NCBI RefSeq assembly: GCF_030013205.1
Contig: NZ_CP122648.1
From: Escherichia coli
GTDB taxonomy: Bacteria > Pseudomonadota > Gammaproteobacteria > Enterobacterales > Enterobacteriaceae
Strand: one strand, 5' to 3'
Length of the DNA stretch: 64,000 bases
Shown here: piece after piece, positions 1-46,121 of the stretch
Position numbering within the stretch: position 1 is the first letter of the stretch
Layout of the letters: each line of letters starts with the position of its first letter
The notes under the pieces: model-generated
Told to the model about the DNA's origin: nothing
What the model saw: the letters and a program-made list of their open reading frames with translations, nothing else
Databases searched by the model: none
Translations under genes and position numbers: made by a program

Positions 1-1207
1 TGCCCGTTGTCGAAAGCCAACTGGTCAGATTGCTGCCGATGGTGGTTGTGATGCCGGTTTTTTTACCATCGCCAACAATCAATGCACCTACGCCGCTGGC
101 ATCTTTTTTCAGTGCAGCGGTGAGTTTGTCGGCATCCAGCTCCAGTTTGCCATCGCTGGGATCGGTCGTGATACCAATCTGCGCCAACGTTTTATAGTTG
201 GAAGAACTAACGGTATTACTCAGCATCGATTTCAACTGCGTCTGAATCGTCCGCAGCGTGGAGTCGCCGAGCAGTGCGCCATTGCTAGAACTCTGGCTAT
301 CAGCTCCCGCATCTACGGCGGTGTATTTGGTCAGGCTGCTGAAGGTATCTATTAGCGAGTTATAGGCATTCACCCAGTCTTTAATCGCCGTTTGCGCTTT
401 GGAGGTGTCCTGAGTGATGGTCAGCGTCTGGTTGCCCGTGGTGACATCGTTCAGGTTCAGGGTGATGTTTTCCAGCGCGTCGCTGATGGTGTTGCTGCTG
501 TTCTCGATGGCGACGTTGTTGACCGTCAGCTGCGCATTCTGAGCGGCGACCGAGACCTCCATGCCGTTGCTGCTGGCACTGGCGTCATAGCCCATAAAAC
601 TTTGTAGCGCATCATCACCGCTAACCGAGAGTGTCATCGCATTGTCAAGGCCGGTGTCATTTGATGTAACTGACAGACGATATTCACCGTTACCCACGTT
701 AATGATGCTCGCGCTAACACCCGCTTTTGCGTTGTTGATGGCATCACGGATCCCGCTTAACGATGAGTTAGCCGCGCTGATATCAATGGTAATCGGATCT
801 TTGTCGCCGCCTTGTTGAATGGTGAGTTTGCTGTCGCTGGTGGCGATCGCCGTTTTCGTATCATCTCTGGTGGTGCGCGTGGTCAGGGTTTGCGCCTGCG
901 CCAGATGGGTGACGCTGATGGTGTATTTCCCGGCGATGGCGTTACCCGCGGTGGTGGCACTGAACGCGGTGGTGCTGCTGGTAGTGCTGGTGGCGGAAAA
1001 AAGATCGGCTTTAGACAATGCAGTATTGGCGGTCTGGAAAGTCGTCAGCGCGCTTTTCAGCGTACCGTAGGCGCTAAGTTTAGCGGTAAACGACGATTGC
1101 TGATTTGAAATAGGGGTTAGCGTCGCTTTTTGCGCGGCGGTGAGGCTATCAAGGATTGAACTTAAATCCAGGCCTGACCCGACTCCCAGCGATGAAATAC
1201 TTGCCAT
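1..1207 (-). CDS. fliD: flagellar filament cap protein FliD, N-terminal part (3' end lies beyond window start)
   Basis: Reverse-strand translation from ATG at 1205-1207 reads MASISSLGVGSGLDLSSILDSLTAAQKATLTPISNQQSSF..., which I recognise as FliD; frame stays open to position 1. Confidence 0.93.
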   Translation of the reverse strand, partial: MASISSLGVGSGLDLSSILDSLTAAQKATLTPISNQQSSFTAKLSAYGTLKSALTTFQTANTALSKADLFSATSTTSSTTAFSATTAGNAIAGKYTISVTHLAQAQTLTTRTTRDDTKTAIATSDSKLTIQQGGDKDPITIDISAANSSLSGIRDAINNAKAGVSASIINVGNGEYRLSVTSNDTGLDNAMTLSVSGDDALQSFMGYDASASSNGMEVSVAAQNAQLTVNNVAIENSSNTISDALENITLNLNDVTTGNQTLTITQDTSKAQTAIKDWVNAYNSLIDTFSSLTKYTAVDAGADSQSSSNGALLGDSTLRTIQTQLKSMLSNTVSSSNYKTLAQIGITTDPSDGKLELDADKLTAALKKDASGVGALIVGDGKKTGITTTIGSNLTSWLSTTG

Positions 1208-1472: not shown

Positions 1473-3260
1473 ATGGCACAAGTCATTAATACCAACAGCC
1501 TCTCGCTGATCACTCAAAATAATATCAACAAGAACCAGTCTGCGCTGTCGAGTTCTATCGAGCGTCTGTCTTCTGGCTTGCGTATTAACAGCGCGAAGGA
1601 TGACGCCGCAGGTCAGGCGATTGCTAACCGTTTTACTTCTAACATTAAAGGCCTGACTCAGGCTGCACGTAACGCCAATGACGGTATTTCTGTTGCACAG
1701 ACCACTGAAGGCGCGCTGTCCGAAATCAACAACAACTTACAGCGTATCCGTGAACTGACGGTTCAGGCTTCTACCGGGACTAACTCTGATTCGGATCTGG
1801 ACTCCATTCAGGACGAAATCAAATCCCGTCTGGACGAAATTGACCGCGTATCCGGTCAAACCCAGTTCAACGGTGTGAACGTACTGGCGAAAGACGGTTC
1901 GATGAAAATTCAGGTTGGTGCGAACGACGGCCAGACTATCACGATTGATCTGAAGAAAATTGACTCAGATACGCTGGGTTTGAATGGTTTTAACGTGAAT
2001 GGTTCCGGTACGATAGCCAATAAAGCGGCGACCATTAGCGACCTGACAGCAGCGAAAATGGATGCTGCAACTAATACTATAACTACAACAAATAATGCGC
2101 TGACTGCATCAAAGGCGCTTGATCAACTGAAAGATGGTGACACTGTTACTATCAAAGCAGATGCTGCTCAAACTGCCACGGTTTATACATACAATGCATC
2201 AGCTGGTAACTTCTCATTCAGTAATGTATCGAATAATACTTCAACAAAAGCAGGTGATGTAGCAGCTAGCCTTCTCCCGCCGGCTGGGCAAACTGCTAGT
2301 GGTGTTTATAAAGCAGCAAGCGGTGAAGTGAACTTTGATGTTGATGCGAATGGTAAAATCACAATCGGAGGACAGGAAGCCTATTTAACTAGTGATGGTA
2401 ACTTAACTACAAACGATGCTGGTGGTGCTACTGCGGCTACGCTTGATGGTTTATTCAAGAAAGCTGGTGATGGTCAATCAATCGGGTTTAATAAGACTGC
2501 ATCAGTCACGATGGGGGGAACAACTTATAACTTTAAAACGGGTGCTGATGCTGGTGCTGCAACTGCTAACGCAGGGGTATCGTTCACTGATACAGCTAGC
2601 AAAGAAACCGTTTTAAATAAAGTGGCTACAGCTAAACAAGGCACAGCAGCTGCAGCTAACGGTGATACATCCGCAACAATTACCTATAAATCTGGCGTTC
2701 AGACGTATCAGGCGGTATTTGCCGCAGGTGACGGTACTGCTAGCGCAAAATATGCCGATAATGCTGACGTTTCTAATGCAACAGCAACATACACAGATGC
2801 TGATGGTGAAATGACTACAATTGGTTCATACACCACGAAGTATTCAATCGATGCTAACAACGGCAAGGTAACTGTTGATTCTGGAACTGGTACGGGTAAA
2901 TATGCGCCGAAAATAGGGGCTGAAGTATATGTTAGTGCTAATGGTACTTTAACAACAGATGCAACTAGCGAAGGCACAGTAACAAAAGATCCACTGAAAG
3001 CTCTGGATGAAGCTATCAGCTCCATCGACAAATTCCGTTCATCCCTAGGTGCTATCCAGAACCGTCTGGATTCCGCGGTCACCAACCTGAACAACACCAC
3101 TACCAACCTGTCTGAAGCGCAGTCCCGTATTCAGGACGCCGACTATGCGACCGAAGTGTCCAACATGTCGAAAGCGCAGATCATCCAGCAGGCCGGTAAC
3201 TCCGTGTTGGCAAAAGCTAACCAGGTACCGCAGCAGGTTCTGTCTCTGCTGCAGGGTTAA
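1473..3260 (+). CDS. fliC: flagellin FliC, 595 aa, conserved N/C termini with long variable central domain
   Basis: ORF translation begins MAQVINTNSLSLITQNNINKNQSALSSSIERLSSGLRINSAKDDAAGQAIANRF and ends ...SVLAKANQVPQQVLSLLQG, the conserved flagellin termini; central region is T/A/G/N-rich and unlike the K-12 allele. Confidence 0.96.
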   Translation: MAQVINTNSLSLITQNNINKNQSALSSSIERLSSGLRINSAKDDAAGQAIANRFTSNIKGLTQAARNANDGISVAQTTEGALSEINNNLQRIRELTVQASTGTNSDSDLDSIQDEIKSRLDEIDRVSGQTQFNGVNVLAKDGSMKIQVGANDGQTITIDLKKIDSDTLGLNGFNVNGSGTIANKAATISDLTAAKMDAATNTITTTNNALTASKALDQLKDGDTVTIKADAAQTATVYTYNASAGNFSFSNVSNNTSTKAGDVAASLLPPAGQTASGVYKAASGEVNFDVDANGKITIGGQEAYLTSDGNLTTNDAGGATAATLDGLFKKAGDGQSIGFNKTASVTMGGTTYNFKTGADAGAATANAGVSFTDTASKETVLNKVATAKQGTAAAANGDTSATITYKSGVQTYQAVFAAGDGTASAKYADNADVSNATATYTDADGEMTTIGSYTTKYSIDANNGKVTVDSGTGTGKYAPKIGAEVYVSANGTLTTDATSEGTVTKDPLKALDEAISSIDKFRSSLGAIQNRLDSAVTNLNNTTTNLSEAQSRIQDADYATEVSNMSKAQIIQQAGNSVLAKANQVPQQVLSLLQG

Positions 3261-3303
3261 TCGTTGTAACCTGATTAACTGAGACTGACGGCAACGCCAA
3301 ATT

Positions 3304-3403
3304 GCCTGATGCGCTGCGCTTATCAGGCCTACAAGTTGAATTGCAATTTATTGAATTTGCACATTTTTGTAGGCCAGATAAGGCGTTTACGCCGCATCCG
3401 GCA
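3304..3403. repeat. REP/BIME element (two inverted REP units) in fliC 3' region
   Basis: gcctgatgcgctgcgcttatcaggcctac ... gtaggccagataaggcgtttacgccgcatccggca, typical E. coli REP palindromes. Confidence 0.75.
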
Positions 3404-3433
3404 ACATAAAGCGCAATTTGTCAGCAACGTGCT

Positions 3434-3457
3434 TCCCCGCCACCGGCGGGGTTTTTT
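3434..3457 (+). terminator. rho-independent terminator downstream of fliC
   Basis: GC hairpin ccccgccaccggcgggg followed by tttttt. Confidence 0.7.
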
Positions 3458-3499
3458 CTGCATGGAATTTACCGGTAACCCCCAAATACCCCCTCATTT

Positions 3500-3560
3500 C
3501 ACCCACTAATCGTCCGATTAAAAACCCTGCAGAAACGGATAATCATGCCGATAACTCATA
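3500..3560 (+). promoter_or_regulatory. fliA promoter region (expected class 2 FlhDC-dependent plus sigma28-type -10)
   Basis: GCCGATAA sigma28 -10 match at 3547-3554, 25 nt upstream of the fliA GTG; no consensus TAAA at the canonical 15-nt spacing, so exact architecture is uncertain. Confidence 0.4.
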
Positions 3561-3579
3561 TAACGCAGGGCTGTTTATC

Positions 3580-4299
3580 GTGAATTCACTCTATACCGCT
3601 GAAGGTGTAATGGATAAACACTCGCTGTGGCAGCGTTATGTCCCGCTGGTGCGTCACGAAGCATTGCGCCTGCAGGTTCGACTGCCCGCGAGCGTGGAAC
3701 TTGACGATCTGCTACAGGCGGGCGGCATTGGGTTACTTAATGCCGTCGAACGCTATGACGCCCTACAAGGAACGGCATTTACAACTTACGCAGTGCAGCG
3801 TATCCGTGGCGCTATGCTGGATGAACTTCGCAGCCGTGACTGGGTGCCGCGCAGCGTGCGACGCAACGCGCGTGAAGTGGCACAGGCAATAGGGCAACTG
3901 GAGCAGGAACTTGGCCGCAACGCCACGGAAACTGAGGTAGCGGAACGTTTAGGGATCGATATTGTCGATTATCGCCAAATGTTGCTCGACACCAATAACA
4001 GCCAGCTCTTCTCCTACGATGAGTGGCGCGAAGAGCACGGCGATAGCATCGAACTGGTTACTGATGATCATCAGCGAGAAAACCCGCTACAACAACTGCT
4101 GGACAGTAATCTGCGCCAGCGGGTGATGGAAGCCATCGAAACGTTGCCGGAGCGCGAAAAACTGGTATTAACCCTCTATTACCAGGAAGAGCTGAATCTC
4201 AAAGAGATTGGCGCGGTGCTGGAGGTCGGGGAATCGCGGGTCAGTCAGTTACACAGCCAGGCCATTAAACGGTTACGCACTAAACTGGGTAAGTTATAA
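3580..4299 (+). CDS. fliA: flagellar sigma factor sigma28 (FliA), 239 aa, GTG start
   Basis: Translation from GTG 3580 reads (M)NSLYTAEGVMDKHSLWQRYVPLVRHEALRLQ...; ORF-track N-terminal extension trimmed to the conserved start. Confidence 0.93.
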   Translation: MNSLYTAEGVMDKHSLWQRYVPLVRHEALRLQVRLPASVELDDLLQAGGIGLLNAVERYDALQGTAFTTYAVQRIRGAMLDELRSRDWVPRSVRRNAREVAQAIGQLEQELGRNATETEVAERLGIDIVDYRQMLLDTNNSQLFSYDEWREEHGDSIELVTDDHQRENPLQQLLDSNLRQRVMEAIETLPEREKLVLTLYYQEELNLKEIGAVLEVGESRVSQLHSQAIKRLRTKLGKL

Positions 4300-13249: not shown

Positions 13250-13325
<76 letters not shown>

Positions 13326-13379
13326 GTTTAAAAGACATCGGCGTCAAGCGGATGTCTGGCTGAAAGGCCTGAAGAATTT

Positions 13380-13453
13380 GGCGCGTTAACAAAGCGGTTA
13401 TGTAGCGGATTGCAAATCCGTCTAGTCCGGTTCGACTCCGGAACGCGCCTCCA
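13380..13453 (+). tRNA. cysT: tRNA-Cys (anticodon GCA)
   Basis: ggcgcgttaacaaagcggttatgtagcggattGCAaatccgtctagtccggttcgactccggaacgcgcctcca. Confidence 0.95.
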
Positions 13454-13465
13454 CTTTCTTCCCGA

Positions 13466-13552
13466 GCCCGGATGGTGGAATCGGTAGACACAAGGGATTT
13501 AAAATCCCTCGGCGTTCGCGCTGTGCGGGTTCAAGTCCCGCTCCGGGTACCA
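13466..13552 (+). tRNA. leuZ: tRNA-Leu (anticodon TAA), long variable arm
   Basis: gcccggatggtggaatcggtagacacaagggattTAAaatccctcggcgttcgcgctgtgcgggttcaagtcccgctccgggtacca. Confidence 0.95.
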
Positions 13553-31802: not shown

Positions 31803-32510
31803 TTGTGCACAGAAAACCCCCAGCTAGGCTGGGGGTTCCGGAAAGCTTTCAGCTTTGAGCCAGTTATTAAAACCCCTTTTGATTTGTTAAAACACCTTGC
31901 GGTCTGGCAACTGCAAGTGTCAAACAAGAAATCAAAAGGGGGTCCCAATGGGGAACGAAAAGAGCTTAGCGCACACCCGATGGAACTGTAAATATCACAT
32001 AGTTTTTGCGCCAAAATACCGAAGACAAGTGTTCTACAGAGAGAAGCGTAGAGCAATAGGCAGTATTTTGAGAAAGCTGTGTGAGTGGAAAAGCGTACGG
32101 ATTCTTGAAGCTGAATGCTGTGCAGATCATATCCATATGCTTGTGGAGATCCCGCCCAAAATGAGCGTATCCGGCTTTATGGGATATCTGAAAGGGAAAA
32201 GCAGTCTGATGCTTTACGAGCAGTTTGGTGATTTGAAATTCAAATACAGGAACAGAGAGTTCTGGTGCAGAGGGTACTACGTCGATACGGTGGGTAAGAA
32301 CACGGCGAAGATACAGGATTACATAAAGCACCAGCTTGAAGAGGATAAAATGGGAGAGCAGTTATCGATTCCCTATCCGGGCAGCCCGTTTACGGGCCGT
32401 AAGTAACGAAGTTGGATGCAAATGTCAGATCGTGTGCGCCTGTTAGGGCGCGGCTGGTAAGAGAGCCTTATAGGCGCATTTGAAAAACCTCCGGCTATGC
32501 CGGAGGATAT
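31803..32510 (+). mobile_element. IS200-like insertion sequence (IS200/IS605 family), about 0.7 kb, boundaries approximate
   Basis: Single tnpA gene flanked by subterminal hairpins (cccccagc-tag-gctggggg at 31817-31835; cctccggc-tat-gccggagg at 32488-32506); extra DNA between the cheW terminator and the tar promoter; no terminal inverted repeats or target duplication seen, as expected for this family. Confidence 0.65.
31948..32406 (+). CDS. tnpA: IS200-type Y1 (HuH) transposase TnpA, 152 aa
   Basis: MGNEKSLAHTRWNCKYHIVFAPKYRRQVFY...CCADHIHMLVEIPPKMSVSGFMGYLKGKSS...RNREFWCRGYYVDTVGKN: HuH motif (HIH) and catalytic Tyr region typical of IS200 TnpA; ORF-track start at 31897 trimmed. Confidence 0.92.
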   Translation: MGNEKSLAHTRWNCKYHIVFAPKYRRQVFYREKRRAIGSILRKLCEWKSVRILEAECCADHIHMLVEIPPKMSVSGFMGYLKGKSSLMLYEQFGDLKFKYRNREFWCRGYYVDTVGKNTAKIQDYIKHQLEEDKMGEQLSIPYPGSPFTGRK

Positions 32511-32543
32511 TTATTTCAGTTTCGCGGCGGGTGGCATCAGCAA

Positions 32544-32570
32544 TAAAGTTTCCCCCTTCCTTGCCGATAA
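32544..32570 (+). promoter_or_regulatory. sigma28 class 3 promoter of tar-tap-cheRBYZ
   Basis: Perfect TAAA-N15-GCCGATAA (TAAA 32544-32547; GCCGATAA 32563-32570), about 30 nt upstream of tar ATG and downstream of the IS200-like element. Confidence 0.75.
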
Positions 32571-45285: not shown

Positions 45286-46041
<756 letters not shown>

Positions 46042-46087
46042 TTTTTACCGTTGCATCATGTCGCCCAATATGATGCTTGCTCGTACC

Positions 46088-46121
46088 AGGCCCCTGCAAT
46101 TTCAACAGGGGCCTTTTTTTA
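46088..46121 (+). terminator. rho-independent terminator after cutC
   Basis: aggcccctg-caatttcaa-caggggcct followed by ttttttt. Confidence 0.7.

What the first reader, a model, noticed from the sequence alone, without database searches (positions are those of the whole stretch)
3261..3457. Long fliC 3' UTR with a BIME ahead of the terminator
The fliC stop is followed by about 170 nt containing two inverted REP units and only then the intrinsic terminator. REP structures in 3' UTRs can stabilise upstream mRNA and stall exonucleases, and the fliC 3' UTR has been reported to give rise to a regulatory sRNA (FliX). This allele keeps the structured 3' UTR despite its divergent coding region.
Basis: partly seen in the sequence, partly recalled or inferred. 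Interest (0 to 1): 0.3.

Follow-up and report, generated by a model that had tools for sequence, protein, structure and literature searches.

The report
FliX small-RNA locus after fliC
The long structured stretch after the E. coli flagellin gene is the already described FliX regulatory small RNA, built around a common repeat element (a BIME-1). It is ordinary here, although about a third of E. coli strains lack it.

Summary
fliC (1473-3260) ends at TAA 3258-3260. The next 174 nt hold a z1 REP (3304-3332), a 36-nt linker (3333-3368) and an inverted y REP (3369-3403). An intrinsic terminator follows (stem 3435-3451, T6 3452-3457).

K-12 MG1655 annotates this stretch as the ncRNA fliX (b4827). 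Window 3264-3457 differs from it by one substitution (A3376) and one fewer terminal T. Melamed et al. 2023 (PMC10578931) showed that FliX (~200 nt) and FliX-S (~100 nt, with one REP) are processed from fliC mRNA, bind Hfq and repress fliC and S10-operon mRNAs. Their seed mutation (GCA to CGT) maps to 3424-3426, which is unchanged here.

The repeat fits the BIME-1 definition: z1, a long linker with an IHF-like site, and y.

I found two things that the papers I could search do not mention. Only 3502 of 5426 complete E. coli genomes carry this long UTR. The rest have about 18-20 nt between the fliC stop and the same terminator. Sampled Citrobacter, Enterobacter and other genera also have the short form, and only E. 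albertii shares the insert. FliX therefore looks like an Escherichia-specific RNA carried on a BIME insertion and linked to the fliC allele.

The parts
1473..3260 (+). fliC (flagellin, 595 aa), the parental mRNA of FliX. Its allele belongs to the H1/H12 group.
   Evidence: ORF list. The variable region 2000-2950 is 98.7% identical to CFT073, Nissle 1917, LF82 and NRG857C (O83:H1), and 98.6% identical to an O15:H12 strain.
3261..3282 (+). Proximal spacer after the stop codon, resembling the short spacer of other Enterobacteriaceae (TCG..CCTGATTAAC). The FliX 5' end lies within it at 3264.
   Evidence: By eye against the sequences listed, it resembles the Enterobacter and Leclercia spacers (TCGCCTGATTACGCTTAAA and similar). 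The FliX cloning primer TTGTAACCTGATTAACTGAGACTG starts at 3264.
3264..3457 (+). Full-length FliX small RNA (194 nt here, 195 nt in K-12).
   Evidence: K-12 ncRNA fliX b4827 at 2001912..2002106. The pairwise alignment shows 1 substitution and 1 indel.
3283..3303 (+). Left flank of the insert. CUGACGG (3285-3291) is predicted to pair with the seed segment 3418-3424 in full-length FliX.
   Evidence: MFE pair list. The probability of being unpaired at 3418-3424 is 0.01-0.09 in FliX.
3304..3332 (+). z1-type REP in iREP orientation, ending in CTAC at 3329-3332.
   Evidence: Pattern match with 0 mismatches, none expected by chance. Inverted-repeat arms.
3333..3368 (.). BIME-1 long (L) linker. It holds an IHF-consensus-like site (ATTCAATAAATTG, minus strand, 3356-3344). 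It also holds the predicted apical loop at 3347-3356, which contains the FliX-S 5' end at 3353.
   Evidence: Rfam ES036 hit at 3325-3366 (-), 42.9 bits against a gathering score of 37.6. IHF pattern WATCAANNNNTTR with 1 mismatch. Apical loop. FliX-S primer GAATTTGCACATTTTTGTAGGCCGG.
3353..3457 (+). FliX-S (105 nt here), the shorter and more active processed form. It contains the y REP, the seed and the terminator.
   Evidence: Primer and gBlock sequences in Supplementary file 3 of PMC10578931. The paper's text describes a ~100 nt band that includes one REP.
3369..3403 (+). y-type REP with a 5' GTAG. It carries a substitution at 3376 (A here, G in the nine other sequences aligned) that breaks a G-C pair of the y hairpin.
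   Evidence: Pattern match with 1 mismatch. Rfam naRNA4 partial alignment. Alignment A2. The predicted y-hairpin energy weakens from -21.6 (G) to -15.4 kcal/mol (A).
3405..3434 (+). Single-copy 3' flank that carries the FliX seed. The conserved core is TTGTCAGCAAC (3418-3428). The nucleotides changed in the published M1 mutant (GCA) are 3424-3426.
   Evidence: M1 oligonucleotide and gBlock, GCA to CGT. The core is conserved in 9 E. coli sequences and E. albertii, with one T-to-C change in one strain, while 3407-3414 varies. Median one copy per matching genome, and near-full-length matches in 3503 genomes, the long-UTR count. 3417-3426 forms a 10-bp contiguous duplex with K-12 rpsS +252..261.
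3435..3457 (+). Intrinsic terminator shared by fliC mRNA and FliX (CCCCGCCACCGGCGGGG followed by T6). It is conserved in both long-UTR and short-UTR strains and in other genera.
   Evidence: Terminator scan. Alignments.
3458..3582 (+). fliA promoter region and fliA GTG start (3580). This is context, not part of FliX, and is conserved in long-UTR and short-UTR strains.
   Evidence: Alignment A1. Annotations of related loci.

Best explanation
The region is the fliX locus, the 3' UTR of fliC. It yields the Hfq-dependent small RNA FliX and its shorter form FliX-S by processing of the sigma-28-dependent fliC transcript. Both forms end at the fliC terminator.

The body of the RNA is a single BIME-1 (z1 REP, L linker, y REP) with unique flanks on either side. 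The regulatory seed (about 3417-3432, core TTGTCAGCAAC) lies in the unique 3' flank, between the y REP and the terminator.

Shown in K-12 by others: FliX and FliX-S lower fliC mRNA and flagellin levels, lower rplC, rpsS-rplV and rpsQ reporter expression, and reduce flagella number. Direct pairing through the seed was demonstrated for rpsS.

My inference from folding only: in the full transcript the two REPs pair with each other into a hairpin of about 140 nt. Its foot (3285-3291 with 3418-3424) covers part of the seed. Cleavage in its AU-rich apical loop (3347-3356, with the FliX-S 5' end at 3353) frees the 3' half and exposes more of the seed. This would fit FliX-S being the more potent form.
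For: - **Position.** K-12 annotates ncRNA fliX (b4827) three bases after the fliC stop, on the same strand.
- **Sequence.** Window 3264-3457 is identical to it apart from G-to-A at 3376 and one fewer T.
- **Published biology.** PMC10578931 reports FliX (~200 nt) and FliX-S (~100 nt, with one REP) as sigma-28-dependent, processed, Hfq-bound RNAs that repress fliC and S10-operon targets.
- **Mapping of published reagents.** The paper's primers place the FliX 5' end at 3264 and the FliX-S 5' end at 3353. Its M1 seed mutation falls at 3424-3426.
- **Seed pairing.** The seed forms a 10-bp contiguous helix with rpsS +252..261. The duplex energy is -23.3 kcal/mol, and 9 of 300 shuffled seeds do as well.
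- **Seed conservation.** The core is conserved across 9 divergent E. coli UTRs and E. albertii, while neighbouring bases vary.
- **Terminator.** A terminator with a U-tract is present.
- **BIME-1 anatomy.**
- **Structure model.**
Against: - There are no expression data for this strain or for this fliC allele. Everything functional is transferred from K-12 on the basis of sequence identity.
- A3376 weakens the predicted y-REP hairpin by about 6 kcal/mol. The U-tract is one base shorter. Either change could alter FliX-S stability or Hfq binding.
- The seed-masking and loop-cleavage model rests on thermodynamic prediction alone. The change in seed accessibility is modest: mean unpaired probability rises from 0.39 to 0.57.
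- The 10-sequence alignment shows no compensatory changes.
- About 35% of E. coli genomes and the other genera sampled lack the element, so it is dispensable for flagellar function.
Confidence: 0.9

Rival explanations
1. The BIME acts mainly as an mRNA stabiliser. The REP hairpins stall 3'-to-5' exonucleases and prolong the life of the upstream fliC message. The stable 3' fragments are decay by-products with no role of their own.
For: REPs are described as mRNA stabilisers in the literature summarised in PMC3333891. The UTR forms a very stable predicted hairpin. This role is compatible with the sRNA role and could coexist with it.
Against: PMC10578931 shows seed-dependent effects. The M1 mutation abolishes rpsS binding and a compensatory mutation restores it. 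A chromosomal M1 mutant was also analysed. The terminator hairpin already protects the 3' end. Short-UTR strains express flagellin without any REP.
Confidence: 0.3
2. The BIME is a neutral or selfish repeat insertion that matters, if at all, at the DNA level. It could bind IHF or gyrase, or act as a topological insulator between fliC and the fliA promoter. Its presence inside FliX would then be incidental.
For: The same repeat family has many copies: a median of 13 matching places per genome. The linker carries an IHF-like site and matches the conserved BIME-1 linker. The insert is present or absent among E. coli strains and absent in the other genera sampled. Independent insertions at the same spot occur elsewhere: IS200/IS605 in L006 and a different insert in L014.
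Against: The functional seed lies in the single-copy flank of the same insert, so the RNA product exists only where the insert is present. FliX-S contains the y REP, and its 5' end maps to the linker.
Confidence: 0.15
3. An independent antisense non-coding RNA of the ES036/CssrF or naRNA4 type is encoded on the minus strand within the BIME.
For: The Rfam ES036 hit lies on the minus strand above the gathering score, 42.9 against 37.6 bits.
Against: The ES036 model is essentially the BIME-1 linker and would match any BIME-1 copy in either orientation. No promoter-like site on the minus strand faces it. naRNA4 scores only 36.5 against a gathering score of 59.5.
Confidence: 0.03

Closest known systems
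FliX / FliX-S small RNA of E. coli K-12 (gene fliX, b4827; Melamed et al. 2023, eLife 12:RP87151, PMC10578931)
   Same: Same position (4th base after the fliC stop), strand, length, BIME content, seed and terminator. 193 of 194 bases are identical, with one fewer terminal T.
   Different: A instead of G at 3376, which makes a mismatch in the y-REP stem. T6 instead of T7. The parental fliC allele is from the H1/H12 group rather than H48.
BIME-1 (z1 REP, long L linker with an IHF site, y REP; also called RIP or RIB elements)
   Same: Two REPs in inverse orientation with GTAG and CTAC facing the linker. A 36-nt conserved linker with an IHF-like site. Single copy.
   Different: Here the element is transcribed as part of a characterised regulatory RNA. 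Complementarity extends beyond the REPs into unique flanks (3285-3291 with 3418-3424, and 3295-3297 with 3411-3413).
Other 3' UTR-derived Hfq-dependent small RNAs processed from mRNAs (for example CpxQ, SdhX, FlgO, and the REP-containing SroC)
   Same: Each shares the terminator of its parental mRNA, has a 5' end made by processing, and has its seed just upstream of the terminator.
   Different: FliX carries a whole BIME. Its targets lie inside coding sequences, and they include its own parental mRNA.
REP mRNA-stabiliser elements (the classic malE-malF type) and REPs close to stop codons that affect translation
   Same: A REP hairpin in a transcribed region downstream of a highly expressed gene.
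   Different: The first REP starts 43 nt after the stop, outside the 15-nt class. A terminator follows. A stabilising effect on fliC mRNA has not been shown.

Membership tests
FliX sRNA (fliX, b4827) | Lies directly 3' of the fliC stop codon on the fliC strand and ends at the fliC terminator | tested here: met
   Window 3264-3457 compared with K-12 2001912..2002106.
FliX sRNA (fliX, b4827) | Sequence homology to the annotated K-12 fliX over its full length | tested here: met
   One substitution and one single-base indel over 195 nt.
FliX sRNA (fliX, b4827) | Intact seed: the nucleotides changed in the M1 mutant, and complementarity to rpsS | tested here: met
   GCA at 3424-3426 is unchanged. 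A 10-bp helix forms with K-12 rpsS +252..261. rpsS of this strain is not in the window.
FliX sRNA (fliX, b4827) | Sigma-28-dependent expression, processing from fliC mRNA, and Hfq binding | not testable with these tools
   Shown for K-12 in PMC10578931. There are no data for this strain.
BIME-1 | One z1 REP and one y REP in inverse orientation | tested here: met
   Matches at 3304-3332 (0 mismatches) and 3369-3403 (1 mismatch). The consensus strings were recalled from memory. The definition comes from PMC3333891.
BIME-1 | Long, well conserved L linker that frequently carries an IHF site | tested here: met
   36-nt linker. Rfam ES036 (a linker model) scores above its gathering threshold. WATCAANNNNTTR matches with 1 mismatch at 3356-3344 (-). 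IHF binding itself was not tested.
BIME-1 | Occurs as a single copy, not as a tandem array | tested here: met
   There is one z1 and one y unit between fliC and fliA.
BIME-1 | Conserved GTAG tetranucleotide 5' to the foot of the REP | tested here: met
   GTAG at 3369-3372 and its complement CTAC at 3329-3332.
REP mRNA stabiliser | The REP hairpin protects upstream mRNA from 3'-to-5' exonucleases | not testable with these tools
   Only the predicted structure is available.
Stop-codon-proximal REP (translation-linked class) | REP within 15 nt downstream of the stop codon | tested here: not met
   The stop ends at 3260 and the REP starts at 3304, a gap of 43 nt. The class is as summarised in PMC12306157.
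Rfam naRNA4 (RF02564) | Score at or above the gathering threshold | tested here: not met
   36.5 bits against 59.5. Only the single y-REP part of the model aligns.
Rfam ES036 / CssrF (RF02751) | Score at or above the gathering threshold | tested here: met
   42.9 bits against 37.6 at 3325-3366, minus strand. The model corresponds to the BIME-1 linker, so the hit identifies the repeat rather than a separate gene.

The most novel reading that the evidence does not exclude
FliX is an evolutionarily young small RNA. It was created when a segment of about 150 nt, carrying a BIME-1, was inserted between the ancestral ~20-nt fliC spacer and the terminator in the Escherichia lineage. The insert is shared by E. 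coli and E. albertii.

Because the insert is tightly linked to the 3' end of fliC, it comes and goes with H-antigen allele replacement. About 35% of sequenced E. coli then lack FliX:

- 871 genomes of the allele group ending in LSLLR, which includes O103:H2, O111:H8 and O22:H8 strains.
- 761 genomes of the 349-aa allele, which I believe is H4 of ST131.
- Roughly 290 others.

If so, the FliX brake on flagellin and S10-operon ribosomal-protein mRNAs is present or absent according to flagellar serotype.
Probability: 0.5. Interest if true: 0.45.

Novelty: already known. Interest (0 to 1): 0.2.

Why it matters
The finding as given re-identifies a published and annotated small RNA, so it adds nothing new about mechanism. 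It does confirm that the FliX locus, including its seed, is intact behind an H1/H12-type flagellin gene.

The by-product may be useful. The papers I could search treat FliX as a feature of E. coli or of the Enterobacteriaceae generally. In fact it is absent from about a third of complete E. coli genomes, and from the other enterobacterial genera sampled where fliC adjoins fliA. The genomes lacking it include lineages that are probably of clinical importance.

Long-UTR and short-UTR strains are ready-made material for two questions: what FliX contributes to motility control, and how a dispersed repeat can seed a new regulatory RNA.

Tried and rejected
- **Rfam hits.** ES036 (minus strand, above threshold) and naRNA4 (below threshold) are models of the BIME linker and the y REP. 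I rejected them as evidence of separate genes.
- **FliX pairing with fliC.** RNAduplex of the seed against fliC -70..+220 and against the whole CDS gave only loose duplexes with large internal loops, and the best sites differed between K-12 and the window. I could not reproduce the paper's fliC pairing site and make no claim about it.
- **Covariation test of the BIME hairpin.** On 10 sequences there were no compensatory changes, and the shuffles equalled the observed values. The sequences are too similar to say anything.
- **Foreign origin of the short-UTR alleles.** The 3' end of the LSLLR group is closest to Citrobacter (about 90-91%). The 349-aa and 554-aa alleles are closest to Pseudocitrobacter (about 94-96%). 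The window's long-UTR allele is also about 93% identical to Pseudocitrobacter, so this does not discriminate.
- **Direct repeat flanking the BIME.** TGACGGCAACG and TGTCAGCAACG match at 9 of 11 positions. I considered a target-site duplication, but treat it as chance or as part of the extended palindrome.
- **Small ORFs across the UTR** (for example 3309-3509) are mechanical artefacts of repeat sequence.
- **Genome-contig scan.** It returned only E. albertii among Escherichia species, so E. fergusonii, E. marmotae and E. ruysiae could not be placed.

Full report
**Context**

The window begins in the E. coli flagellar region. fliD lies on the minus strand. On the plus strand come fliC (1473-3260, 595 aa), fliA (GTG at 3580), fliZ, tcyJ and dcyD (annotations of homologous loci). 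The finding covers the fliC-fliA intergenic stretch from the fliC stop to the end of the fliC terminator.

**Checking the observation**

- The stop codon TAA is at 3258-3260.
- A consensus scan finds one plus-strand terminator: stem CCCCGCC/GGCGGGG at 3435-3451, 7 GC pairs, a 3-nt loop, then TTTTTT at 3452-3457. The stop and the terminator are therefore 174 nt apart.
- A z1-type REP consensus (recalled from memory) matches 3304-3332 with no mismatch. A y-type consensus matches 3369-3403 with one mismatch. None of 100 shuffles of the 64-kb window gave any match to either.
- The two units are in inverse orientation and complementary to each other. CTAC (3329-3332) and GTAG (3369-3372) face a 36-nt linker.
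- The UTR RNA folds far better than shuffled controls: -71.7 against -54.9 +/- 4.3 kcal/mol, z = -3.9.

**What the repeat is**

PMC3333891 defines BIME-1 as one z1 and one y REP. It occurs as a single copy, and the two REPs are separated by a long, well conserved L linker that frequently carries an IHF site. The element here meets each criterion.

- The linker matches Rfam ES036 above its gathering score (42.9 against 37.6 bits, minus strand). This model is in effect the BIME-1 linker.
- The y REP aligns to the first hairpin of naRNA4, but below that family's threshold.
- The linker also contains ATTCAATAAATTG (3356-3344, minus strand), one mismatch from the IHF consensus WATCAANNNNTTR.

These Rfam hits identify the repeat family. 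They are not evidence of separate genes.

**What the region is**

K-12 MG1655 annotates the ncRNA fliX (b4827, 195 nt). It starts on the fourth base after the fliC stop, on the same strand. Window 3264-3457 differs from it by a single substitution (A at 3376 instead of G) and one fewer T in the terminator tail.

Melamed et al. 2023 (PMC10578931) described the following:

- FliX is a ~200-nt, sigma-28-dependent, Hfq-bound RNA processed from the fliC mRNA.
- FliX-S is a ~100-nt form that "includes one of the REP sequences downstream of fliC".
- Both reduce fliC mRNA, flagellin, flagella number and the expression of rplC, rpsS-rplV and rpsQ fusions. FliX-S has the stronger effect.

Their oligonucleotide list lets the features be placed in the window:

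| Feature | Window position |
|---|---|
| FliX 5' end | 3264 |
| FliX-S 5' end | 3353 |
| M1 seed mutation (GCA to CGT) | 3424-3426 |

The seed lies in the 30-nt segment between the y REP and the terminator, and it is identical in the window and in K-12. As an independent check I paired this segment with K-12 rpsS. Positions 3417-3426 form a 10-bp contiguous helix with rpsS +252..261, inside a duplex of -23.3 kcal/mol, and 9 of 300 shuffled seeds do as well. The helix includes the M1 nucleotides, consistent with the published footprinting.

**How it probably works**

Shown by others in K-12: sigma-28 transcribes fliC, the 3' UTR is released by processing, and Hfq binds it. The seed pairs with rpsS, and pairing is predicted for sites inside fliC and other S10-operon coding sequences. 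Expression of those targets falls.

Inferred here from folding only:

- In the full-length RNA the two REPs pair with each other rather than folding separately. They form a hairpin of about 140 nt (3285-3424).
- The foot of this hairpin pairs CUGACGG (3285-3291) with UUGUCAG (3418-3424). Those seed bases have unpaired probabilities of 0.01-0.09.
- The predicted apical loop is the AU-rich UUUAUUGAAU at 3347-3356, and the FliX-S 5' end (3353) falls inside it.
- Cleavage there would split the hairpin. The 3' half would be left with the y REP folded on itself and a more open seed. The mean unpaired probability over 3417-3428 rises from 0.39 to 0.57.

This fits the greater potency of FliX-S, but the effect is modest and untested. 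A 10-sequence alignment shows 97% of the pairs maintained but no compensatory change, so it neither supports nor refutes the structure.

**The one difference from K-12**

A3376 replaces a G that is present in the nine other sequences I aligned: K-12, O157:H7, six diverse E. coli strains and E. albertii. It turns a G-C pair of the y-REP stem into an A·C mismatch. The predicted stability drops from -21.6 to -15.4 kcal/mol for the y hairpin, and from -44.3 to -38.1 for FliX-S. Full-length FliX is unaffected. Whether this changes FliX-S abundance is unknown.

**Conservation against fliC divergence**

The variable region of this fliC (2000-2950) is found in only 202 of 5426 complete E. coli genomes. 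It is 98.7% identical to H1 strains (CFT073, Nissle 1917, LF82, NRG857C O83:H1) and 98.6% identical to an O15:H12 strain. The intergenic query (the UTR plus the fliA upstream region, 3261-3579) is covered at 80% or more in 3502 genomes, which include K-12 (H48) and O157:H7.

**A polymorphism not mentioned in the papers I could search**

The other ~1920 genomes match the query only from position 175 onward, which is exactly where the terminator begins. All six that I opened have 18-20 nt between the fliC stop and the same terminator, with no REP and no seed.

There are at least three short spacers:

- TTTACACTTATCGCTCAA(A/C) follows alleles that end ...LSLLR. This covers 871 genomes, including O103:H2, O111:H8 and O22:H8.
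- TGGCCTTAACCTGCCTGA follows a 349-aa allele. This covers 761 genomes, including SaT040. From memory, this is H4 of ST131; I did not verify that here.
- TCGCCTGAATGCCTCTCAAA follows a 554-aa allele.

The seed-bearing flank (3403-3436) has a median of one copy per matching genome. It is present in near-full length in 3503 genomes, matching the long-UTR count of 3502. No short-UTR genome has a comparable match elsewhere. These strains therefore have no FliX of the K-12 kind.

**Other genera**

A scan of one genome per species with a fliA-start pattern returned 93 Enterobacteriaceae loci.

- In most loci where a fliC 3' end was found upstream (Citrobacter, Enterobacter, Leclercia, Buttiauxella, Pseudocitrobacter, Atlantibacter and others), the distance from fliC to the fliA GTG is about 165-180 nt. 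In the dozen read directly, a spacer of about 17-25 nt precedes a conserved terminator. This is the short form.
- In a few loci, including Salmonella diarizonae, the flagellin gene lies about 1.4-1.5 kb from fliA.
- Only E. albertii has the insert, at 87.8% identity to 3267-3437. It keeps the core TTGTCAGCAAC while the surrounding bases differ.
- By eye, the first ~20 nt of the long UTR resemble the short spacers. Compare TCGTTGTAACCTGATTAAC here with TCGCCTGATTACGCTTAAA in Enterobacter.

The long form therefore looks like the ancestral spacer plus an insert of about 150 nt just before the terminator: a unique left flank, the BIME-1, and a unique right flank that holds the seed. No E. coli, E. 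fergusonii or E. marmotae locus was returned by this scan, so the time of insertion within Escherichia is not resolved.

PMC13085923 states only that FliX is "found only in the Enterobacteriaceae". I found no mention of the within-species polymorphism in the held library.

**Rival readings**

- A stabiliser role for the REPs is compatible with the sRNA role and untested. The seed-dependent genetics in K-12 argue against it being the only role.
- A purely DNA-level or selfish-repeat reading fits the presence/absence pattern and the fact that this spot attracts other insertions. Examples are IS200/IS605 in E. coli AF40 (L006) and an unrelated insert between duplicated terminators in Enterobacter sp. 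R1 (L014). The RNA seed, however, travels with the insert.
- An antisense ES036-type RNA has no support beyond the repeat-model hit.

**Verdict**

The finding itself is of low interest. The allele-linked absence of FliX in about a third of E. coli, and its apparent origin on a BIME-bearing insert, is a modest by-product worth a systematic check.

Noticed in passing
window 3261-3434 compared with L001, L002, L004, L005, L007 (fliC stop to terminator): About 35% of complete E. coli genomes (roughly 1920 of 5426) have only 18-20 nt between the fliC stop and the terminator, with no BIME and no FliX seed. There are at least three different short spacers, each linked to a different family of fliC 3' ends.
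   Followed up: yes
L008-L100 (93 Enterobacteriaceae loci); L009:997-1167: In most loci of other genera where a fliC 3' end was found upstream of fliA, the short fliC-fliA spacing (about 165-180 nt) is seen. Only E. albertii shares the BIME/FliX-like insert (87.8% identity). The scan returned no E. coli, E. fergusonii or E. marmotae locus.
   Followed up: partly
L009 (E. albertii), about 1150-1200: The E. albertii copy keeps the seed core, but its terminator has a changed stem and no T-tract (CCCCGTTGCAGCGGGGATTTACC). Termination and Hfq binding may be impaired there.
   Followed up: no
L006:1454-2200 (E. coli AF40, NZ_OZ547043.1): An IS200/IS605-family tnpA (1639-2097) is inserted immediately after the fliC terminator, between fliC and the fliA promoter region.
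   Followed up: no
L014 (Enterobacter sp. R1(2018)), fliC-fliA intergenic region: An unrelated insert of about 160 nt sits at the same position, bracketed by two copies of the terminator CCCCGCTCCGGCGGGGTTTT. This suggests the terminator is a recurrent insertion or duplication site.
   Followed up: no
window 3376: A substitution (A here, G in the nine other sequences aligned) breaks a G-C pair in the y-REP stem. The predicted stability of FliX-S falls by about 6 kcal/mol. The same base is present in porcine strain K_EC180, which matches the region at 100%.
   Followed up: partly
window 3407-3414: The patch just upstream of the seed core varies among long-UTR strains (AAAGCGCA, GAATGGTA or GAAGCGTA). 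About 1620 genomes are in the 80-90% identity band for this flank, while the core at 3418-3428 stays nearly invariant.
   Followed up: partly
window 45813-46120 (+), 31815-31938 (+), 32481-32554 (-), 13250-13549 (+): Other Rfam hits above threshold in the window: MicL, STnc490, C0465 and three tRNA genes.
   Followed up: no
window 3286-3296 and 3419-3429: An imperfect direct repeat, TGACGGCAACG and TGTCAGCAACG (9 of 11), brackets the BIME. The second copy overlaps the FliX seed. It may be chance, or it may be a trace of how the insert arose.
   Followed up: no
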